64,000 nt of DNA from Eledone cirrhosa (Eukaryota), in the NCBI GenBank assembly GCA_964016885.1, contig OZ024740.1:51150001-51214000 (forward strand). The letters run 5' to 3'. The notes under the pieces were generated by a model. It saw only the letters and a list, made by a program, of their open reading frames with translations, had not been told where the DNA came from and searched no databases. The position numbers were made by a program, and so were the translations under genes. Below are positions 1,181-64,000 of this stretch, in pieces; position 1 is the first letter of the stretch, and each line of letters opens with the position of its first letter.

Positions 1181-1525
1181 TGCACATGGCTTAGTGGTTA
1201 GAGCATTGGTCTTGCAATCGAAAGGTTGTGAGTTCAATTCTCAGACCAGGTGATGTGTTGTTTCCTTGAGCAAGACACTTTATTTCACATTGCTCCAGTT
1301 TACTCAGCTGTAGAAATGAGATGATAGGGACTGGGGTCCTTATCATTCCACTGCAAAGTGGTCGTGGAGGTGCCACAGCAAAAAAGCACCCAGCACTCAC
1401 TGTAAAGAGGTTGGTGTTAGGAAGTGCATCCAGCTGTAGAAATCAAGCCAGAATCAGTTCCCGTCCCACCCTTGCAAGTAGGGAAAAAGCGGACATAAAA
1501 TGAAATGATGATGATGATGAAATGA
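1181..1525 (+). mobile_element. tRNA-derived SINE, family A
   Basis: Head has A box TGGCTTAGTGG and B box GAGTTCAATTC. 3' end matches the RTE tail plus (TGA)n. Inserted in (TA)n. Confidence 0.88.
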
Positions 1526-1552
1526 TATATATATATATATATATAAAATAAA

Positions 1553-1643
1553 GTAAGGACGAGTGGTTACACTTTCATTACGTTTACACTCAGTCTAGCT
1601 CTACACCTCGACACAGAAGTAAACCTAAACATCGAGTGCTCAC
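1553..1643 (-). ncRNA. Type I hammerhead-like motif with degenerate core
   Basis: GTGAGCAC TCGATG- t TTAgGTTTAC..GTAAACgTAA t GAAA GTG-taac-CAC TC GTCCTTAC. Confidence 0.5.
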
Positions 1644-2020
1644 CCGAGTAAACCTACAGTAACTCCACATTATACTCCCTGGATATATATATATATATAA
1701 AAGGTAAACAGAAATAACAACACAATCGGTACAGTATATGGAAGGTATTAGAGAGAGAGAGAGAGAGAGAGAGATGTGTCAATTATGATTTGTTACTTGG
1801 CAGAATGAATTACTGAAGTTGAAAATAAGCAAGGGAATTAAGAATGGTACTGAGGAAGCATATATACAAATGCAGATGACAGTTTGCGAAAGGTACATTT
1901 AGATCGTAACTGTCATACACTCTCAATTGGAAGTACCATTGGGGAATAAAAAAGAATTACTTTAAATTAGAAGTTACAACATAAAAACTTCATTCTTTTG
2001 TAAAAAGTATTTATATATAG

Positions 2021-14432: not shown

Positions 14433-14886
14433 CTAGCCTCCGTATATCCACTGTATTTACCACTCAAGTCTCACAATGATGCAACATCAAACTCCTCACA
14501 AAGGCATCATTCAAACTACTCTTTGTATTCACAGAGTCATCAAGCAGGAGACTTGTCTGACAACCATGGTAGTACACAGGACAAACTCCAAAGCAACAAG
14601 ACTCAAATTTGGCCTTGATAAAGAATATATTAATATGAATACAGCATTAAATACTCATTCTCACAACCATCAATACGAAGTGTGCATGTGTATTTATACA
14701 TATATATATATATATATATATGGGATAACAAGTTATCGTTTTAGGTAATCCAGTTAGAGGTTATGAGTACTCTGTATTGTGGATAGTTTTAACGTATGGC
14801 GTTGTTTGACTCAACAAGAGGTTTTCATAGTTAGGTCACTCGACCTTAAATACAGTGTATGTCTCTGATCAAATCATCGGAATACT

Positions 14887-14997
14887 GTATTTCGATGATG
14901 TGATCAGAGACACACACTGTATTTAAGGTCGAGTGACATAACTTTGAGTGATTAGTGGCCTTTAGACTCACCTGATCAATGAAACAATTGTTAATAC
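14887..14997 (+). ncRNA. Type I hammerhead-like motif with (T/C)CGATGA core
   Basis: GTATT TCGATGA tg TGATCAG...CTGATCA at GAAAC-aatt-GTT AATAC. The adjacent inverted copy preserves CCGATGA. Confidence 0.65.
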
Positions 14998-15052
14998 TAG
15001 AAATAATACCCTTCTTGTACAGCCGACCATGTTATTCTTCACTCTTTCACTA

Positions 15053-15364: not shown

Positions 15365-16631
15365 CAGGGTGTGGACGATATTTGTTCGCAATTTTCAACT
15401 GCTAATTTTATGCATATTTTTTTTACTTCCGTTGTCACTCTTGTCTTCATAAAAATAGTGACTATATTTCCATTATTTATTTTCAGAATAATTGATTATG
15501 AATAATTTTGAACCTCCAAATTTGTGGAAGAGACACGGAGTTCTTCTTGGAATCCGCGCTGGGAGGACAAATAAGGAAATTTCAGACTTTCTCAGTGTCA
15601 GCAGGAGAATGGTGGAAAAGGTCAGAAAGGAATTGGAAGATTCAGGATTCGACTACAAAGCAACATCAAAGAGGAAAACACATGATCGACGATCTGACGC
15701 CTTCAGAACGCCCAAGTTCGTCGCTGAAGTTCAGGATATCATCAACAATGAACCTAGCAAGTCGATGCTTGCCATTGCAATGGAGAAAGGCTGGTGGTAC
15801 ATGAAGACATTCGCTACGTTTCATACAAGATGAGGAAAGGACAATTTCTGTCAAAGGCGATGCAAGAAAAGCGACTGAAGCACGCAAAGAAGCTGATCAA
15901 CAAGTTGAAACACCCACTGGAGCCAGACATGCTGTGGTTTTTCTCCAATGAGAAAAACTTCTGCCAAGACCAGAAGATCAACTCCCAGAACAACAGGTGG
16001 CTCACTGTCTCATCCTAAGATGCCCAGAGTCATGCAGACAAAGTTTCCAGCGACAACATTGGTCTTAGGTGTCGTCAGCAGTCAAGGTAACGTCATGCCA
16101 CCTCACTTCTTCCCTGAGGGCCTCAAGCTGAACACCGATGGCTACATCCACGTTCTGAGCGAGTTAGTAAAGCCCTGGATCGACCAGGTAGCTGCAGGTA
16201 GGCCGTACATGTGGCAGCAAGACTCAGCGCCCTGCCATACCAGCCAAAAGACTCAAGCCTGGTTGTCAGAGAACTTCGTCGACCACACTTCACCTGACAT
16301 CTGGCCTCCCAGCTCACCTGACTGCAACCCCCTCGACTTCTTTGTGTGATCTAGCTGCAATGCGAAAGACGATCTGAAGGCCAGGATCACAAGTGCCTTT
16401 AGGGGCCTAAGTCAGGGGTCAGTGATGAAGGCTTGTAGCCGGTTCCAAGGTTGCCTTGAGGCCATCATCAAAGCCAATGTCGGGTTTATCAACTGAGATC
16501 AAAAGAACAAGTCATGAAGACAAACTGACCCAAGTTTGATATCTTAAAAAATAAGATATCTTAAAAAATAAAACTACTGTGTTATTTTCTCCTAGACAGT
16601 AATCTTGCGAACAAATATCGTCCACACTCTG
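15365..16631 (+). mobile_element. Tc1/mariner DNA transposon, DD37D (maT) type, transposase pseudogenised
   Basis: 27-bp TIRs CAG(G/A)GTGTGGACGATATTTGTTCGCAA in TA context. Transposase is split over ORFs 15492-15833, 15794-16018 and 15948-16349. Motifs FFSNEK (D>N) and QQD...37 aa...SPDCNPLD. Confidence 0.92.
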
Positions 16632-20889: not shown

Positions 20890-21185
20890 CCACCACCTTT
20901 GCTGCCCCTCTAACCCTTATCATCATTTGCATCACCACCACCACCACCACCACCAATCATCGACATCATCATCATGGGTAATCACTGATAACGATAATGA
21001 TGTCGATGATAATGGTGGTGGTGGTGATGCAAATGATGATGAGGATAATATTGACGATGATGGTGGTGGTGGTGGTGGTAGAAGTGGTTGTGATTACCCA
21101 TGATGATGATGTCGATGATTGGTGGTGGTGGTGGTGGTGGTGATGCAAATGATGATAAGGGTTAGAGGGGCAGCAAAGGTGGTGG
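20890..21185. repeat. Inverted repeat with 96-bp arms
   Basis: 20890-20985 is the reverse complement of 21090-21185. Confidence 0.9.
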
Positions 21186-26384: not shown

Positions 26385-26687
26385 CTTTGTTGACAATGAC
26401 TTCAAAATTTTGCCAGTAGTCGCTTATTCAAACTGTTTGGAAGGGAAAGTTGGCAACAAATTACAACTTGAGTTGCTGCTGTTACTGCTATTAATCTATT
26501 TCATTATCACAGCTGCTTTTACCAATGCCTTGCCACCACCAACGCCACTTCTTTACTACACCTGTTACTAATCTCAACCCTATAACACTAAACACATCCC
26601 CTACTACCTTATCCTGAGTCTAACTAATACTACTAGTACTACAACAACTACTATTACTAATGATGATGATATTAATATTATGTCTTA

Positions 26688-27800
26688 TTTTTATTATGTG
26701 CTGTTACAACATTACCAAGCATGGCTGTGTACAGTGTTGTTTTTGGTGTTCTTATTTCTATTGTATTGAGTATTTATTATGTGCTGTTACAACATTACCA
26801 AGCAGAGCTGTGTACAGTGTTGTTTTTGGTGTTCTTATTTCTATTGTATTGAGAGTATTTATTATGTGCGGTTACAACATTACCAAGCAGAGCTGTGTAC
26901 AGTGTTGTTTTTGGTGTTCTTATTTCTATTGTATTGAGAGTATTTATTATGTGCGGTTACAACATTACCAAGCAGAGCTGTGTACAGTGTTGTTTTTGGT
27001 GTTCTTATTTCTATTGTATTGAGAGTATTTATTATGTGCGGTTACAACATTACCAAGCAGAGCTGTGTACAGTGTTGTTTTTGGTGTTCTTATTTCTATT
27101 GTATTGAGAGTATTTATTATGTGCAGTTACAACATTACCAAGCAGAGCTGTGTACAGTGTTGTTTTTGGTGTTCTTATTTCTATTGTATTGAGAGTATTT
27201 ATTATGTGCGGTTACAACATTACCAAGCAGAGCTGTGTACAGTGTTGTTTTTGGTGTTCTTATTTCTATTGTATTGAGAGTATTTATTATGTGCGGTTAC
27301 AACATTACCAAGCAGAGCTGTGTACAGTGTTGTTTTTGGTGTTCTTATTTCTATTGTATTGAGAGTATTTATTATGTGCGGTTACAACATTACCAAGCAG
27401 AGCTGTGTACAGTGTTGTTTTTGGTGTTCTTATTTCTATTGTATTGAGAGTATTTATTATGTGCGGTTACAACATTACCAAGCAGAGCTGTGTACAGTGT
27501 TGTTTTTGGTGTTCTTATTTCTATTGTATTGAGAGTATTTATTATGTGCGGTTACAACATTACCAAGCAGAGCTGTGTACAGTGTTGTTTTTGGTGTTCT
27601 TATTTCTATTGTATTGAGAGTATTTATTATGTGCGGTTACAACATTACCAAGCAGAGCTGTGTACAGTGTTGTTTTTGGTGTTCTTATTTCTATTGTATT
27701 GAGAGTATTTATTATGTGCGGTTACAACATTACCAAGCAGAGCTGTGTACAGTGTTGTTTTTGGTGTTCTTATTTCTATTGTATTGAGAGTATTTATTAT
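26688..27800. repeat. 85-bp minisatellite, about 13 near-identical copies
   Basis: Unit TTTATTATGTGCGGTTACAACATTACCAAGCAGAGCTGTGTACAGTGTTG...GAGAGTA. ORF starts recur every 85 nt. Confidence 0.97.
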
Positions 27801-30039
27801 TTGCCTGTCATCCTTTCGAGGTCAATAAAATAAAGTACCGGTCAATTACAGCGGCCGATATAATGAACTTTCACTTTCCCCTAAATTACTGGCCTTGTGC
27901 CTAAATTAGAAACAATTATTATTTCTTTGACAGTTTCATGCAAGTTTCTACTGCATCACCAGATTCACCTGTGTATACCTGAGGTGTGCAGCATTGTGTT
28001 CCTATTTTTGTAAGCAGCAGTTGGGTGGTGGAGCTCTAGTATAGACTTTTCTTATAGACTGTACTGCATCAGTCTTATTTTGTTGCTGTTATAATCATTA
28101 TCATCTATAATATTATTCTGCTTATCACTCACTATATGTGTTCGAGTGTTACACTTTCAACAAGCTTAAATATGGAATAAAAGAGAAGACATAATTGAAA
28201 TCTTTAATATAATGAAATGTTCTGGAGATCTTCAAAATAGAAATAACTTTTGTAAAATGGATTGGCAGTATCAGGCGCCATGCTTTCCAATTGAGTTTCA
28301 ACAAAGATCTTAGAGTGAGCACTTTTCTAAGTATATATGCTGTGCAAGACAGAGAGTATTTTGTGATTTGAGGTCTATTTACATAAGATACCCTCTTAGA
28401 TTTAATGGCATTGAGCCTAAAGCTGTGATGACAACTGGAATGATTTTGAAGTTGTTAGGTGCACATCTTCCTTGAGTTGGTGAATGCCTAGAGCCCTAGC
28501 TAGAATGAGCTATGAAGTTCATGTTTCAAAGAATGGCATTAGCATTATTTTATTTTTATAGTTCCACATCTTATATTACATCATCTTTGGATACAGTTTT
28601 CCAAAAGTCCTTTACCCATTTTCTCTCTCTCTTCCTCATACACACACATGTAATGGACCTCTTCACAGTTTCCATCCACCAAAGTCTACTTATAAGGTAT
28701 TGGTCAACTAAAGACTATAGTAGAAGACATTTTACCAATGCACCATACAGTGAGATCAAACACAGATCCATATGGTTCTGAAGCCAACTTCTTAATCACA
28801 CAACTATGCAGAAGTGTCTTATGTAACAAAGTAAATGTGATAAACTATTTGTAAAGAGAATAGCATCTACAAATAGAAGCCTGTGCTTCTGCAGCTTATC
28901 TCCTCCCCTGTGAGACATATCAACACACTTGTTCCTCTCTTGGATTGCACCTTCAACCAATATACCAAATTATTGATGCCTAACTTCAGTGTAAATGAAG
29001 CATATAGTTGATTGAATTAACTCCAGTAAATTATTTGAACTTAGTTTGTTGATACTAGATGGACTAAAAGCATTGTAGTGATGAAAAAGATATTGCCACA
29101 AATAAATTATGAATAATTACTAAGTATATGGAGCTCACCAGATATACTTTGTTACATCAAACACTACTACTGTTTATTATTAGAAAACAGAATTGCAGAG
29201 TGTCAGGTTGTATTGTTCTAGCTGTTTACATTCTCAGTTCAATTCCTGTTGAGATTAACTTAGCTGTTTCCCCTTCCTAGGTTAATAAAATAATGTACTG
29301 GATCAAGTACAGGGGTTGATTTAATCAACTTGACCCACCTCCAAAACTTCTGGCATTGTACTTATGTAAGAAATCACTATTAGGTCGCACTATTGCAGCA
29401 TTAATGTCCTGTGTGCTGTGCCTCAATCTGAGCAATAACATTATTAATTCTATGGCAAGTCCTCCTTTAACCCTTTTATTACCATATGAAAACACTAAAA
29501 GAGACTCTCTATATTTTGGAAATAAGCAATAATTTTGCACTTAGTTAAAAAAACATAAAAGTATTTACATAAAATTATCATGGAGGTTTGTTAATAAATA
29601 TAAACACATTGAAATAGACAGTTTTTTATCATACAACCAGGGACAGTTTCATGTGGTTTGGTATTGAAAGGTTTAACTGCAGCTAAATCACACAGGACAA
29701 ATATAAAAGATTTTTCATGCTAGTATATGAAGACATTAAATGTGAAAAAATCAACCCTCTCAATCATTGTTAATTCTCTTATGTATAACTTCATTGTTTA
29801 TAATTTTTATTTCACTACTAATGTCATGTTCACTTTTCTTTATTTTTAGTTGCATAAATATGAAATTAGTTTCATCTAAAGATTAAAACTGAAAAGTATC
29901 TGGAGATATAATATACAAAATTTTAATTTTTTTAGTTTCTAGGCTCTGTGATCTTTAAGAAAAATGTTCTATTGGTCTATCATACATATTTCCAAATGAG
30001 ATTATAAAATAGGGCACATAAAAGTTCAGAAAAGTGAAA

Positions 30040-36693: not shown

Positions 36694-38502
36694 TCCTTTG
36701 ACGGGATGTGGGGAAGGGAAAACATTCTTCTTGTTTAAAAGAGGTTGTGAAGTGGACAGAACTGAATGGACAGACATACTTTCCTCTTTGACCAAATACT
36801 TATTCTTTTAAATTCCACTTGTGGAGGAAAGTAAAGATAGAGGAGATGCTGCCCACCAATAATTTATTAGGTAGGTGAAAGTGGCTAGCATGGCAAAAAT
36901 GAAGGGGTCTATTCTCGACTTGCACTGATAGGCCGGAGAATGACAGTTGGAAGAGGGTGCTTGCCCTTAGTAGTCAGAGTAATCCTGGATCTGTGAAGTT
37001 TCTTGATTGGTTGTAGATGACGGAACCTCTTTTCTGGGAACTCGTAGCACACATTTTGTGTATTATGTATATAATTTTTCTTTTTTTCCTTCATCTAATT
37101 TCAATGTAAATCCCTGCAATTTTTGTAACCTATCCCTGTCGCCCGTATGATAAATAAAAAATTATTAATATCATTGAGTCAGTCCTGAAATGAGCCATAG
37201 GCTCTAGACATTTTTTCATAAAAAAAAAAAAAAACACAATTTTACAGTAATCAACTCTCCATTATTACAATGCTACCGTTGTCAAAATAGGCAAATTATT
37301 CTTACTCCAACAATATCTATTTCAATTGTCAATATCTATTTCGAACTCTTGATCTATCTACCGGCTGGCCGGTTGTTCGTTTCCTAATAGGTGTGCAGTA
37401 TTTAATAACGGTCCTTTACGTTCCGAGTTCAAATCTCATCGTTCTGGAGATTGATAAAATGATGTACCAGTCATATACTAGTTCGATTTAATATTCCTAT
37501 AAAGCATCCTAGATGTGAAAGGAGTTATACAAGAAACGAGTTATACAAGAAACGAGTCTGCACGATCTCAGAAGTGTAAACATGAAATTTGATAGTATAG
37601 AGGACCTCCGGATATATAAAAAGGATTATTGATAGGGGGGGGGGGTGCACTTCGCAAATAAGACCCGGGGGATATTTTCTGAGCTTTGGGGGGAGGGACT
37701 TATATGCCATCAAACACAGCAGCTTTATCCTGTTCTCTACATCATCCGCAACGAAAGCATTCGTCATATTTATTTATATATTTTTTATTTTATATATGCG
37801 TGTATCTAGTTATTTGTATACATATATTACTGTATAGGTTTTCGCGCACACACACGCACACATCATCATCATCATCATATCATATCTCTCTGTGTTTATG
37901 TTTATATGTAACATCACCTCAAGAATGGTCATATAACAAACAGGGTCGGATTAAGCTTGCGAGTGACGCCCGGCCGAAAATTTCATCGGGGTTGTTGCAT
38001 ATTATTCATGATAACCAAAAAGTTAATTTAGGGCCCCTTGGTTACATCCAACTCACCTCACCCTTCTAATACGCTACTGATTGCATGCTGTTTGTGTATA
38101 ATTGTGTGTGTGTGTATGCATGCAAGCACACAAATAAACAAAGAATAGGTACTGCTACTCTTCCAATTATTTCTACATTTGACTCACGGCCAGCAATTTG
38201 AAGGAAGGATAAAGTTGATTAAATCGACCCTAATGCATTACTGGTACTTTATTTTATCTACCCTGTAAGGATGAAAAGCAAAACTAACCTCGGTGGGATT
38301 TGAACTCAGAATGTGTCGCGAAGCACGTTGTCCAATGATCTACCGATACTGCCAATTCACTGCCCGCCTCAGTCTAATTAATAATAAATATATGTATATA
38401 TGTGTGTATGTGGAATGATGGAGGCTAGAAGAGGTAACTAACAGAAACCTCCGAGCTCGAGGTAGATCCTCTTCACACGTGTAGGTCTGAACAGGTAAAC
38501 AT

Positions 38503-41245: not shown

Positions 41246-41538
41246 TGTGGGTATGGTGTGGCGTGCGGTGGCCGGAGGCGGGGGAGTGCTCGACCGGAAG
41301 GGGGTTTGGCCGGAAGGATGCTCGACCGGAAGGGCCAGCAGAGGGCCTCTCTTTAGTGGTGACCAGCAAACGGTGTTAAGCAGTTGGACGCACGTGGAAG
41401 AGGAGTAACCTGCAGTGGAGTTTAGCGGCGCCTACGAAAAGCGGTAAGTGAGATAGCTTTTTCTAACCACAAGCTATTTCGGCGACTGAAAAAAAAAAAA
41501 AAAAAAAAAAAAACACTTGCCGCAAGACAAATCAGGAG

Positions 41539-42300
41539 ATGGCGACAAGACTACGGATGAACGAAGCTATTAGGGCATTTACCGGGGAAGGTGATGTTGT
41601 CGCTTGGCTGCGGAAGGTTCGGCTGGTCGCAAGCTTGCAGAAGATAGAGGACGTGGCCGGCCTCATGGCACTGTACATCGAGGGCGACGCGTTGGTACTC
41701 TTCCTTGAGTTGGACGAGCACAGCCAAAGAGATGCGCAGAAGATTGAGAGGCGTCTGATGGATGCATTCGCCGAGGGACCGTTGGCGGCTTTTGCTAAGC
41801 TGGCGAGAATCAGGTGGAATGGTGAGCGCGTCGACATTTTCGCAGCGGAAATACGGCGGTTGGCCATGTTGGCCGGTTACCAGGTGGAATGCGAACGCAC
41901 GGTGCGGTTGGCGTTCATCAATGGATTTCCGGACGACATAGCGGTGAAACTGCAGCAAGTCCCGGGTTATAAAGAGATGGAAATGCGTTCACTGGTGGAA
42001 CAAGCCCGGATCATAGCGGAAGATGCCAAAAAGAGTGTTGCGGCGATAGCAACTACGGAGGCTCAGGACACCTGGCAGCGAAATGGTGAAAGGGAGGCAA
42101 CCTCGGCACACGGCCGCCCGCGTGCGTTTAGAGGGCGCTGTTTTCGGTGCCAGGGCTCGCACATGGCTAGAGACTGTAGAGAGTCGAAGCCGGAGATAAT
42201 TTGCTACCGGTGTAAGCGACCAGACCACATCGCTACTAACTGCGACCAGGGAAACGATCCAAGGGGAACTACTGCGCCGGTAGTTGCCCCTTACGAGTAG
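41539..42300 (+). CDS. Retrotransposon Gag with two CCHC zinc knuckles
   Basis: Open 253-aa ORF containing CFRCQGSHMARDC and CYRCKRPDHIATNC. Confidence 0.9.
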   Translation: MATRLRMNEAIRAFTGEGDVVAWLRKVRLVASLQKIEDVAGLMALYIEGDALVLFLELDEHSQRDAQKIERRLMDAFAEGPLAAFAKLARIRWNGERVDIFAAEIRRLAMLAGYQVECERTVRLAFINGFPDDIAVKLQQVPGYKEMEMRSLVEQARIIAEDAKKSVAAIATTEAQDTWQRNGEREATSAHGRPRAFRGRCFRCQGSHMARDCRESKPEIICYRCKRPDHIATNCDQGNDPRGTTAPVVAPYE

Positions 42301-42306
42301 CGGCGC
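42249..42306 (+). promoter_or_regulatory. -1 programmed ribosomal frameshift signal (G GGA AAC plus H-type pseudoknot)
   Basis: Heptamer is in the correct Gag phase with a 5-nt spacer. Stem AAGGGG-AACTAC / GTAGTT-(G)-CCCCTT. Loop GCGCCG is complementary to downstream CGGCGC (42301-42306). The -1 frame is open into the protease. Confidence 0.8.
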
Positions 42307-45125
42307 TGCCCGTGGTAGAAGTCTTCGTGAGGGGGAAGCCACAGCGAGCCCTCGTGGATACGGGCTGTACGACGACACTGGTGACCGCGGGGGTGGAGCA
42401 GAGGTGGGGAGGGAAGAGCAGTGTAAGGGCAGTCGACGGCAGGAAAATTGAATTCCGAGGTCGCAGCGAGATGGAAATAGCGGTATGGGGAAGGAGGATA
42501 AGGCTTTCCGCCATCGTGGTAGCCAGTGTGGTGGATGGGATCGGCGTGGTTATGGGCATGGACGCGATTGGCCGTCTAGGGGGCGTCACGGTGAACAATG
42601 TTGGTGTGTCGTTTGGCGCCGCTGCATCGGTATGCGCTGTGAGTGCACGTCATGAGAACCAGAAGGCCCACGAGGAGGAATACCCCGCTTACACTGTACA
42701 GGACAAAGACTTCAAGGCCGTGTTTGATGGGCAGCGATGGGTTGTTGAGTGGTACTGGAAGGGAGAACCACCAACACTGAAGACCAAAGTGGGCTGCTAT
42801 CAACACACATTGAAGGGAAACGCTAGGAGCGAGTTCGAGCGAGAAGTAGAGAGATGGATCGAAGAGGGCATACTGCTTCCCTGGAAGGAGGAGGTGAAGT
42901 GCGGAGTATTGCCGTTAATGGCGGTGGTGCAACCCACGAAGAGCAAGGTGAGGCCGGTGCTGGACTATCGGGAGCTGAACGAGCACGTGTCATGCCACAC
43001 GGGTGGCGAGGTCACGGATGTCTGTGGGGAAATCCCTGCGTGAGTGGAGACGCATGACGGGGGATTCAGCGATCGTGGATCTAAAGTCGGCTTACTTGCA
43101 GTTGCATATAGATGAGAAGCTCTGGCGGTATCAGCTGGTCAGGTATAAGGGCCGGACATATTGCCTGACCAGGCTCGGTTTCGGGCTGAGCTCCGCACCG
43201 AAGATCATGGCGGCGGTCCTCAAGACCGCTCTGGGGAGGGCCGACAAGATAAAGAGGGCTACTAACTCCAATATTGACGACATCCTAGTGGACAAGTTGG
43301 TGGTGTCGACGGCGGAGGTCACGAGCCATTTGCGGAGGTATGGACTGACTGCGAAGCCATCAGAAGCATTGGAGGGAGGAGCCGCGCTGGGACTTAGGCT
43401 ACGGCGAGACAAGACGGGCGTTTTGGTGTTCCAGAGGGGAAACGAAGTTCCGGAACTGGGCCCAAGTATGAGTAGGCGGGAGCTTTTCTCGGTGTGTGGA
43501 AAGCTGGTGGGTCACTGCCCGATCGCTGGGTGGCTCCGGGCGGCATGCAGCTATGTCAAGAGACGAGCGGGAGGGGTGACCTGGAGTGACGGAGTGGGAG
43601 AGAGGACGGTGGTCATGATGCAGGAGATCATGGGGAGGGTGAAGGCCGACGACCCAGTGCGGGGACACTGGTATGTTCCCAAATCACAGAGCGGGACCGT
43701 ATGGTGCGATGCCAGCAGCATAGCGCTGGGTGTCACGTTGGAGATAGGATGTGTTGAGGTCGAGGATGCAGCCTGGCTTATAAAGAAGGACGACTGCAGC
43801 CACATCAATGTGGCCGAGCTGGACGCGGTGTTGAGAGGGGTGAACCTCGCCCTGCGGTGGGGGCTGCGCACCATCGAGATACACACCGACTCGTCTACTG
43901 TACTCGGATGGGTAAGATCAGTGCTCACCAGTGAGAAGAGAGTGCGAACGAGAGGCGCGGCAGAGATGCTGATAAAGCGCCGCCTGGGAACGTTAGGAGA
44001 GCTGGCCACCGAGTTCGACCTGAAGCTGAGCGTAGTGTTCGTGCCCTCAGAGAAAAATAGGGTGGACATCTTAACTAGAGTGAAGAAAGCCTGGATGGAA
44101 GCGCCGGAGGAGGTAGAGGATGAGATAGCTGCCGTGTGTCGGCTGACCGAGTCAGACCTGAAGGGGTTGCATGACATGCACCACATGGGGGTGGATAGGA
44201 GCCTGTTCCTAGCCAGGAGAATCGACTCGGACGTTAGCAGACACAGTGTTCGGGGGTGGTTAGAGGCTGCGTCCGATGTCAGTCCATTGATCCCGCCCCG
44301 GGTGTACACGAAACGGGAAGCCTCCCGGTGGATCGCGACTGGAAGCGATTAGCGGTGGATGTGACGCACTACCGGCAGGGAAAGTACCTCTCGATGGTCG
44401 ACTGTGGACCAGGTCGAATGGCGATATGGAGGGAGATGAGGACTGGAACGGCCGAGGAAATCGTGCGGACGTTGAGAGAGGTGTTCTTGGAGCGGGGCCC
44501 TGTGGACGAACTGCTGATGGACAACAGCGCAGCGTTCCGCTCGGAGGCACTGAGGGAGATGCTCGATGGATGGAAGGTGGACCGTTTCTTCAGAGCGGCG
44601 CACAGGCCGAGCGGGAATGGAATCGTGGAGCGACACCACCGGACAATCAAGGCAATGGCGGAGCGGGGCCATATCTCACCAATGGAGGCAGTGTTCTGGT
44701 ACAATATGTCCCCTCGGGTTGGACAGGTCGAGGAATCGGTGCCACACAGAGCAGTATTCAAATACGAGTGGCGGCACCCGTGCACGCCACCACAACGGCC
44801 AGTTGGGAGAGAGAGTGCATTCGTGCAGGTGGGCGAAGAAGTCTAGGTTAAGCCCCCAGATGCACGTTGCACATCTCAATGGGGAAGAGGAACGGTGACG
44901 GCCGTAAATTCAAAGATCAATGTGTCCGTGGACGGGGTACCACGTCATGTCCTGGATGTAAGAAGAATCACTGTGTCGACGGACTCCGAGGAAGAGGAAA
45001 CCCAAGATGAGGTGGAAACCCAGAGCTCTGCCCCAATACTACGAAGATCGCAACGAAGTCGTAGACCACCAACCTGGACAGCAGACTTTCATATGCAGAG
45101 GGACGAGGGGGAAATTGATCTTTGA
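42249..45125 (+). pseudogene. Retrotransposon Pol (protease, RT, RNase H, integrase), disrupted
   Basis: Motifs LVDTG (protease), DLKSAY...GFGLSSAP...NIDD (RT, Y>N), WCDAS...HINVAEL...HTDS (RNase H), HxxHH/CxxC with D..D..E (integrase). Frameshifts near 43030 and 44255, stop at 44844-44846. Confidence 0.9.
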
Positions 45126-57252: not shown

Positions 57253-57599
57253 TCATCATCATTTCATCATTTCATTTTACGTCCGCTGTTTCCCTGCTTG
57301 CAAGGGTGCGACAGGAACTGATTCTGGCTTGATTTTTACAGCTGGATGCCCTTCCTAACACCAACCTCATTTACAGTGAGTGGTGGGTGCTTTTTTGTCG
57401 TGGCACCTACACGTCCACTTTGCAGTGGAATGATAGGAACCCCAGTCCCTACCATCTCATTTCTACAGCTGAGTAAACTGGAGCATTGTGAAAATAAAGT
57501 GTCTTGCTCAAGGAAACAACACATTGCCCGGTTTGAGAATTGAACTCACAACCTTTCGATTGCAAGGCCAATGCTCTAACCACTAAGCCATGTGCCTCC
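57253..57599 (-). mobile_element. tRNA-derived SINE, family A
   Basis: Reverse-complement match to 1181-1525. Confidence 0.88.
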
Positions 57600-57822: not shown

Positions 57823-57912
57823 TGTGTCCGAAGAACCCGCAGTTATAGAATCAGGCAGATCCATACAATGATCATGTCTCGAGCTATCTGCCGGCGAAAC
57901 AATTGTAACACG
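57823..57912 (+). ncRNA. Type I hammerhead-like motif with CCGAAGA core and minimal palindromic stem III
   Basis: TGTGT CCGAAGA a CC..GGCAGAT..ATCTGCC GG c GAAAC-aatt-GTA ACACG, followed by AATAAA. Confidence 0.7.
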
Positions 57913-63339: not shown

Positions 63340-64000
63340 AACCCACGAACATGCAGTTACCAATGTGGTGGTGCACCGTCTTGCTGGAAAATGATGGTTG
63401 GTTGAAGGTCATCTAGTTGTGGTGCCTCATATTCAGTCAAAAGGTCAAGGTAAACATTTGCAGCAATTGGACCAATGATTCGATTGCACACGATCCCACA
63501 CCACACATTCACCTTTGGACTATCTCGGTGAAGTTCCCTGGTCACATGGGGGTGTTCTGATCCCCAGATTCTCACATTATGTGTGTTCAGTTTCCCTTAA
63601 ACATGAAAGGTTGCCTCATCACTAAAACAAACTCAGTCCATTTGTCTTCAACGAGACATCAATTACTGCAAGATGGTGCACCACCACATCGGGGACTGCA
63701 TGTTCATGAGTTCCTAAGTCAAACATTTCCAGACCGGTGGTTTGGAAGGGATGGCCCAGTTCCCTGGCCACCTCATTCACCAGATATCACACTTCTTTCA
63801 ATGGGGTTATGTAAAAGATATTGTGTATCGAACAAAGATACGAGACATTACTGATCTAAAGCAAAAGATCATTGATGCTATTGCCACCACTGATGAGGCT
63901 ATGCTACAGCGAACATGGCAAGAAATCGAGTACTTTCTTGATGTTGCATGAAGCACATCAAGACGGTACTCGATTTCTTGCCATGTTCGCTGTAGTATAG
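63340..64000. mobile_element. Rearranged Tc1/mariner (DD41D/rosa-like) transposase remnant with inversions
   Basis: Minus piece KVNVWCGI...FQQDGAPPHW. Plus piece LQDGAPPH...WPPHSPDIT...WGYVKDIVY. Terminal fold-back at 63898-64000. Subfamily is inferred from spacing because the third D is deleted. Confidence 0.8.

What the first reader, a model, noticed from the sequence alone, without database searches (positions are those of the whole stretch)
14722..15052. Second CCGANGA-type hammerhead whose inverted duplicate preserves the ancestral core
Seen: 14829-14885 is an inverted copy of 14887-14943. The plus copy reads GTATT-TCGATGA-TG-TGATCAG, while the inverted copy reads GTATT-CCGATGA-TT-TGATCAG, which restores a T-A pair in stem II. 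Stem III is GAAAC-AATT-GT, identical to the 57.9-kb motif although stems I and II are unrelated. Inference: U4>C is a family feature rather than decay, since it recurs at 14892 and 57828 and probably at 1635 and 38548.
Basis: partly seen in the sequence, partly recalled or inferred. Interest (0 to 1): 0.75.

Follow-up and report, generated by a model that had tools for sequence, protein, structure and literature searches.

The report
Penelope hammerhead ribozymes with altered core
This is a broken, mirror-shaped scrap of a Penelope-type jumping gene whose family carries a predicted self-cutting RNA (hammerhead), and about half of roughly 8,000 related motifs in this animal genome have the same one-letter core change, which is known from elsewhere and likely slows cutting without stopping the element from spreading.

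Summary
14722-15052 is a (TA)n-flanked head-to-head insertion of the terminal repeat of a Hydra-clade Penelope-like retrotransposon. Its plus arm has a complete type I hammerhead layout with a private C3U change. Its minus arm keeps CCGAUGA but has lost GAAA, stem III and the cut site.

U4C is a family feature. It is in 517 versus 236 exact flanked matches for this family and 3,917 of 8,137 matches across the wider radiation. Stems co-vary among C4 lineages, and C4 sits on coding copies. It is not ancestral overall: all 26 published Hydra rows read CUGANGA, and two lineages show U4 first and C4 at the tips. The sites at 1635 and 38548 are not cores.

Copies end at the foot of stem I, about 31 nt behind a TATA box, and not at the cut site, so uncut RNA was likely copied. 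U4C is already known from a viroid, and this scan has met it in phages. New here are its scale and repeated switching in an animal retrotransposon. Cleavage is untested.

The parts
14701..14721 (.). (TA)n target microsatellite, left flank
   Evidence: sequence
14722..14836 (-). distal tail of the element (long 3' end, about 320 nt from the core in full-length copies)
   Evidence: alignment to tail-bearing copy L053; full-length copy L269
14837..14885 (-). 5' half of the hammerhead (stem I 5' strand, CCGAUGA core, stem II 5' strand, part of loop II), followed by a ~162-nt internal deletion; no GAAA, stem III or cut site
14886..14886 (.). centre of the head-to-head junction (perfect palindrome with one central A/T; the same junction in 10 of 11 junctions of this class found in the fetched loci)
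14887..14891 (+). stem I 5' strand; its foot is the preferred 5' end of copies, next to the putative transcription start
14892..14899 (+). core positions 3-9 (U3-C4-G5-A6-U7-G8-A9; C3U is private to this copy) plus the Hydra-type extra U
14900..14980 (+). stem II (14900-14907 with 14972-14979; private T>G at 14900) closing a ~64-nt loop II; junction U at 14980
14981..14992 (+). GAA core, palindromic minimal stem III (14984-14991) and predicted cut after U14992 (GUU)
   Evidence: same layout as File S2 rows
14993..14997 (+). stem I 3' strand
14998..15052 (+). rest of the terminal repeat up to the short 3' end, then (TA)n
57824..57904 (+). second C4 hammerhead (CCGAAGA) of another Hydra-type lineage, also in a head-to-head insertion

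Best explanation
The stretch is a dead, truncated, head-to-head insertion of the terminal repeat of a Hydra-clade Penelope-like retrotransposon, whose family carries a predicted minimal type I hammerhead with C instead of U at core position 4 in about half of its copies, a change that likely slows self-cutting but is tolerated. Shown: parent structure (repeat with hammerhead, about 380 nt, then an RT and GIY-YIG frame, then the repeat again), copy counts, stem covariation, and C4 on coding copies. Inferred: transcription starts about 31 nt behind a TATA box at the foot of stem I. The element's enzyme nicks both strands of a (TA)n run and starts copying at two fixed sites about 160 and 320 nt downstream of the core. 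Both cDNAs run through the uncut hammerhead to the RNA's 5' end and join there, giving the palindrome. The ribozyme needs a dimer and probably protein help, and cutting before copying would break the template. Strong activity is therefore not needed for spreading, and position 4 can switch between U and C in master elements while the rest of the fold stays under constraint.
For: Parent: RT/EN frames with RWK, DKT, CxCx5C, CxxC and CRH motifs upstream of the motif, matching the Hydra definition. Two full-length tandem copies, 3.2 and 3.3 kb. Sense EN upstream of 11 of 71 C4 arms and 17 of 67 U4 arms, and a 620-aa open frame before a C4 motif. Counts. Covariation in 16 hand-picked C4 representatives: first three stem I pairs 48 of 48 with five pair types at pair 2; stem I 68 of 80 and stem II 56 of 64 paired, with 0 of 5,000 shuffles as high (relatedness not controlled). 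Position 7 takes all four bases in C4 lineages. Switching: 6 changes on 57 rows (5 forced) and 3 on 31 rows (3 forced), core left out of the trees. 5' ends: 24 of 86 arms at -9..+3 versus 3.4 expected; 4 of 86 at the cut site versus 1.8 expected; U4-enriched set 16 of 94 and 3 of 94. A TATA box was found 37-46 nt before the core in 13 of 14 copies inspected. Literature: U4C lowers activity in vitro yet keeps a viroid infectious (PMC3088659); the anole Penelope hammerhead needs protein, and its mutants still insert in vitro from two start sites (PMC11167929).
Against: No cleavage was measured. The large counts come from patterns that enforce the other core bases, so they cannot show by themselves that only position 4 moves. 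Other core defects also spread in small subfamilies: a one-base core insertion in the 57.8-kb lineage and A9U in 5 of 54 arms. This fits a dispensable ribozyme. Pairwise mutagenesis of a type III hammerhead found low activity for all CUGA single mutants (PMC9901934, passage). Stem II of the 57.8-kb lineage has a fixed mismatch, also present in its U4 sisters. The transcription start is inferred from DNA only, and the 57.8-kb lineage shows no TATA box by eye. Some tree changes are single copies and may be decay after insertion. In this copy's own lineage the U4 and C4 groups are of similar age (median divergence 0.019-0.049), so polarity there is open.
Confidence: 0.62

Rival explanations
1. 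U4C is favoured by selection as a brake: elements that cut themselves less keep capped, unbroken RNA and make more copies.
For: In two lineages C4 arose at the tips, and in one of them the C4 clade has the shortest branches (100/100 clade). Copies come from uncut RNA. Craig et al. note that losing the hammerhead may help proliferation.
Against: U4 subfamilies are as numerous (4,220 of 8,137 by subtraction) and some are young. Changes back to U seem to occur. U4 copies also show no pile-up at the cut site, so there is little visible cost to relieve.
Confidence: 0.17
2. C4 hammerheads are fully active in their natural context (long loop II, dimer or protein compensates), and U/C at position 4 is simply neutral.
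For: Stems and the other core bases persist along long C4 branches. A published search descriptor already uses CYGANGA (PMC13481778).
Against: In vitro data report a considerable drop for U4C. C4 is absent from 26 of 26 published Hydra rows.
Confidence: 0.2
3. C4 copies no longer cut at all; the fold is kept for another job, such as binding the element's protein.
For: No footprint of cutting in genomic copies; further core defects spread in subfamilies; insertion in vitro does not need cleavage.
Against: The catalytic bases, the UH triplet and the dimer-forming palindrome are kept in all 16 C4 representatives, although these were found by pattern.
Confidence: 0.17
4. CCGANGA is chance or decay after insertion.
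For: Seven-base motifs are common (50 in the window versus 36 expected).
Against: 517 exact flanked copies with 0 controls. CpG decay runs the other way (C4 to U4).
Confidence: 0.01

Closest known systems
Hydra clade of C-terminal EN+ Penelope-like elements and their hammerheads (Craig et al. 2021, PMC8557442; section 11, File S1 Hydra sheet and File S2 read)
   Same: Protein motifs, (TA)n targets, inverted 5'-truncated copy, optional tail; type I hammerhead with an extra base after A9 (U opposite U before GAA in 14 of 26 rows) and a 3-4-bp palindromic stem III.
   Different: All 26 listed rows have CUGANGA and loop II of 3-10 nt. Here about half have C4, loop II is about 45-70 nt, the tail is about 160 nt rather than 30-40, and the element is 3.2-3.3 kb rather than usually under 3 kb.
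Minimal hammerheads of Penelope terminal repeats (Cervera and de la Pena 2014, PMC4209133; parts 1-2 of 4 read)
   Same: Thousands of genomic copies, long stem II, dimer-dependent stem III, pairs of motifs on opposite strands, low activity in vitro, and one family-level core variant (U3-A8).
   Different: The parts read report no C4 family; they stress a conserved G10.1-C11.1 pair, which is not fixed here.
U4C hammerhead variant of a viroid (Ambros and Flores 1998, seen only as cited in PMC3088659) and the CYGANGA descriptor (PMC13481778, passages)
   Same: The same base change.
   Different: There it is a rare variant; here it marks whole amplifying subfamilies, several times over.
Anole Poseidon element PAc (Frangieh et al. 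2024, PMC11167929; parts 1-2 of 4 read)
   Same: Two copying start sites that define the tail, both DNA strands nicked and extended, hammerhead cleavage not needed for insertion.
   Different: In PAc the hammerhead overlaps the start codon; here it lies about 380 nt before it, at the inferred RNA 5' end.

Membership tests
Type I hammerhead ribozyme | Core C3-U4-G5-A6-N7-G8-A9 | tested here: not met
   Family has C4 in 517 of 753 flanked CYGANGA matches; this copy's plus arm also has U3. U4C is a described natural variant.
Type I hammerhead ribozyme | G12-A13-A14, A15.1-U16.1, H17 | tested here: met
   14981-14992; at least 91 of 100 aligned arms at each column.
Type I hammerhead ribozyme | Three stems with covariation | tested here: met
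   stem III is a self-complementary 8-mer, as in dimer-type forms.
Type I hammerhead ribozyme | G10.1-C11.1 pair | tested here: not met
   U.U here and variable across lineages; U.U is common in Hydra rows and a known tolerated mismatch.
Type I hammerhead ribozyme | Rfam model match | tested here: not met
   No hammerhead family at E<=5; the long loop II is a likely cause.
Type I hammerhead ribozyme | Site-specific self-cleavage | not testable with these tools
   No pile-up of copy ends at the cut site; this is indirect.
Hydra-clade Penelope-like element | Single frame, RT then C-terminal GIY-YIG | tested here: met
   L269, L270, L395, L400, read by motif. Pfam gave no significant match and the protein search found nothing.
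Hydra-clade Penelope-like element | RWK, DKT, CxCX5C linker, CxxC and CxH | tested here: met
   against the definition.
Hydra-clade Penelope-like element | (TA)n insertion, pseudo-LTR, inverted 5' copy, optional tail | tested here: met
Hydra-clade Penelope-like element | Placement inside the clade in an RT tree with reference sequences | not tested
   Only an 11-row EN tree of local copies was built.
Naiad Penelope-like element | Endonuclease N-terminal to RT | tested here: not met
   EN is C-terminal.
Non-LTR retrozyme | Head-to-tail tandem of short non-coding units, each with a hammerhead | tested here: not met
   Copies are solo or head-to-head truncations of a coding element.

The most novel reading that the evidence does not exclude
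Retrotransposon lineages in this genome have repeatedly evolved the same U4C brake on their own ribozyme because uncut, capped RNA is what gets copied. This would be a natural, replicated experiment showing that the Penelope hammerhead is tuned down by selection, which bears on the open question of what it is for.
Probability: 0.17. Interest if true: 0.68.

Novelty: new variant of a known kind. Interest (0 to 1): 0.4.

Why it matters
The role of hammerheads in Penelope-like elements is open. Matched U4 and C4 sister subfamilies, arising several times in one genome, give ready-made natural pairs for testing whether cutting helps or harms transposition. Searches that demand CUGANGA and a short loop II would miss these motifs, about half of them on the core alone. 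The locus itself is only a dead copy.

Tried and rejected
Rfam scan: no hammerhead; the hits at this locus are microRNA models on the palindrome. Naiad parent considered because of the (TA)n targets and rejected (EN is C-terminal). Splice acceptor at the stem I foot considered: no shared upstream exon among the truncated arms, and some subfamilies lack AG. Pfam on three parent fragments: nothing above cut-off. Protein search with the EN part: 36 candidates, none significant. The first 5'-end mapping of the U4 set was flawed because two reference copies carried foreign or inverted upstream DNA; it was redone. A lower substitution rate in the core than in loop II was discarded as biased by pattern selection. 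My strict local descriptor missed both window copies. Folding after the two 3' ends of L269 gave only weak hairpins, which is inconclusive. Lunse et al. 2017 on Penelope hammerhead variants and Ambros and Flores 1998 are not held; the first could already describe C4 forms. Searches for a printed C4 Penelope family found none.

Full report
Observation. The window is G000:C1:51150001-51214000 of a 3.0-Gb genome. 14829-14885 is an inverted copy of 14887-14943 with 4 mismatches in 57, and the quoted readings are right. The plus arm has a full type I hammerhead layout: stem I 14887-14891 with 14993-14997, core 14892-14898, stem II around a ~64-nt loop, GAA at 14981, a palindromic stem III and a predicted cut after 14992. 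Its core is TCGATGA, so the C3-G8 pair is broken. The minus arm keeps CCGATGA, but after about 49 nt it jumps ~162 nt into the element's tail and has no 3' half. In a read-through RNA the core is predicted to be locked in the long hairpin (pairing probability about 1.0). This copy cannot work on either strand. Rfam finds no hammerhead.

What it belongs to. The stretch is a dispersed repeat (106 matches from 40 scored of 3,817 candidates). [quoted passage not shown] Two tandem copies show repeat, about 380 nt, start codon region, frame, repeat, over 3.2-3.3 kb. The RWK, DKT, CxCx5C, CxxC and CRH motifs and the (TA)n targets match the Hydra clade of Penelope-like elements (PMC8557442 section 11). 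I did not place it in a reference tree. The 57.8-kb motif belongs to another Hydra-type lineage (L271). Published Hydra hammerheads have the same extra base after A9 and the same small palindromic stem III, but all 26 rows read CUGANGA and have short loops. Inverted 5' copies and tails are typical of these elements.

Is U4C a family feature? Yes. With fixed flanks, CCGANGA has 517 matches and CTGANGA 236; a free core gives 796 versus 1 control (slightly longer 5' flank). In the first 100 rows I count by eye 54 CCGANGA, 28 CTGANGA and 18 scattered others. The 57.8-kb subfamily has 42 of 50 CCGANGA and no CTGANGA. A looser pattern tied to the shared stem III gives 8,137 matches (14 controls), of which 3,917 are C4; a few loci count twice. 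C4 arms have sense endonuclease sequence upstream in 11 of 71 cases versus 17 of 67 for U4, and one C4 motif follows a 620-aa open frame, so coding masters carried it. In 16 C4 representatives that I chose from the rows, the first three stem I pairs hold in 48 of 48 cells with up to five pair types; stem I is paired in 68 of 80 and stem II in 56 of 64 cells, above all 5,000 shuffles. Relatedness is not controlled, and the rows were found by pattern. The 1635 and 38548 sites are not cores.

Is it ancestral? For this insertion, yes: TCGATGA and the G at 14900 are private. For the clade, no. Trees built without the core need 6 changes on 57 rows (5 forced) and 3 on 31 rows (3 forced) (rows with other loop lengths, and two outliers, were left out). 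One lineage shows a U4 grade leading to a 14-row C4 clade (100/100). The 57.8-kb lineage, rooted on six U4 rows, has C4 nested at the tips. Some changes are single copies. In this copy's lineage the direction is open, since the subgroups have similar divergence. C4-G5 is a CpG, so decay restores U4; other CpGs in the repeat show 1-7 transitions per base in about 55 arms.

How it likely works. In 86 distinct arms anchored 3' of the cut site (from the first 100 of 976 matches), 24 have their 5' end at -9..+3 relative to C3 (3.4 expected, Poisson p about 3e-13) and 4 at the cut site (1.8 expected, p 0.11). A U4-enriched set of 94 arms (from 416 matches) gives 16 and 3. A TATA box lies 37-46 nt before the core in 13 of 14 copies inspected; in this lineage it is 31-32 nt before an initiator-like A at -6. 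I infer that transcripts start at the foot of stem I. The arms end at two fixed 3' points (59 short and 27 tailed of 86), like the two start sites of the anole enzyme, which nicks and extends both strands and does not need hammerhead cleavage (PMC11167929). Two cDNAs running to the RNA 5' end and joining there would give this palindrome. The copied RNA was uncut in both U4 and C4 families. U4C is reported to lower activity considerably yet stay viable in a viroid (PMC3088659 passages), and CUGA single mutants were weak in a mutagenesis screen (PMC9901934 passage). The most likely reading is a weakened, tolerated ribozyme whose fold is still constrained. Against strict need: a core insertion and an A9U change also spread in small subfamilies. 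Cleavage is untested.

Novelty. Hammerheads in Penelope repeats, head-to-head pairs and family-level core variants are known (PMC4209133). U4C is known, and CYGANGA is used as a descriptor (PMC13481778 passages). This scan has seen U4C in phages and Hydra elements in this genome. Five searches found no printed C4 Penelope family, but Lunse et al. 2017 could not be read. Also seen: part 1 of 5 of bioRxiv 10.64898/2026.07.22.740005, and passages of the Craig preprint, PMC6765202, PMC2377424 (Drosophila Penelope has a TATA-less internal promoter, unlike my inference here) and PMC6155905. Core numbering and TATA/initiator spacing are recalled.

Verdict. A real new variant of a known kind, notable for its scale and repeated switching; this locus is a dead copy. 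Interest 0.4.

Noticed in passing
window 38413-38472: Decayed piece of another hammerhead-like repeat in which bases after the core look complementary to bases beyond the cut site (possible pseudoknot); 26 short matches elsewhere. It may be the rewired form that earlier notes describe.
   Followed up: partly
window 1545-1685: Small head-to-head remnant of a third Penelope-like family; relatives carry a hammerhead 3' half with a different palindromic stem III, and one shows a U4 core.
   Followed up: partly
L120, L133 and others: A sub-lineage of the 57.8-kb family with one extra base in the core (CCGAAGGA) in about a dozen of 30 loci.
   Followed up: partly
loci L001-L364: Many further type I hammerhead families with other palindromic stems III; those seen read CUGANGA, so C4 seems concentrated in the radiation sharing this stem III.
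   Followed up: no
L021, L029, L076, L401: Both arms of one palindromic insertion group together or share private changes, as expected if they come from one source RNA or were homogenised later.
   Followed up: no
window 41467-44846: Gypsy-like LTR retrotransposon frames (gag, protease, RT, integrase by eye) in several pieces.
   Followed up: no
window 26598-27917: Near-perfect 85-bp tandem array.
   Followed up: no
window 20890-21185: 96-nt perfect inverted repeat with a 104-nt spacer inside simple repeats.
   Followed up: no
window 1187-1244, 2028-2085, 57533-57590: tRNA-like heads of a dispersed repeat, probably a SINE.
   Followed up: no
window 15909-16349 and 63600-64000: Mariner/Tc1-like transposase remnant at 15.9 kb (by eye) and a hairpin in a similar-looking remnant at 63.9 kb.
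   Followed up: no
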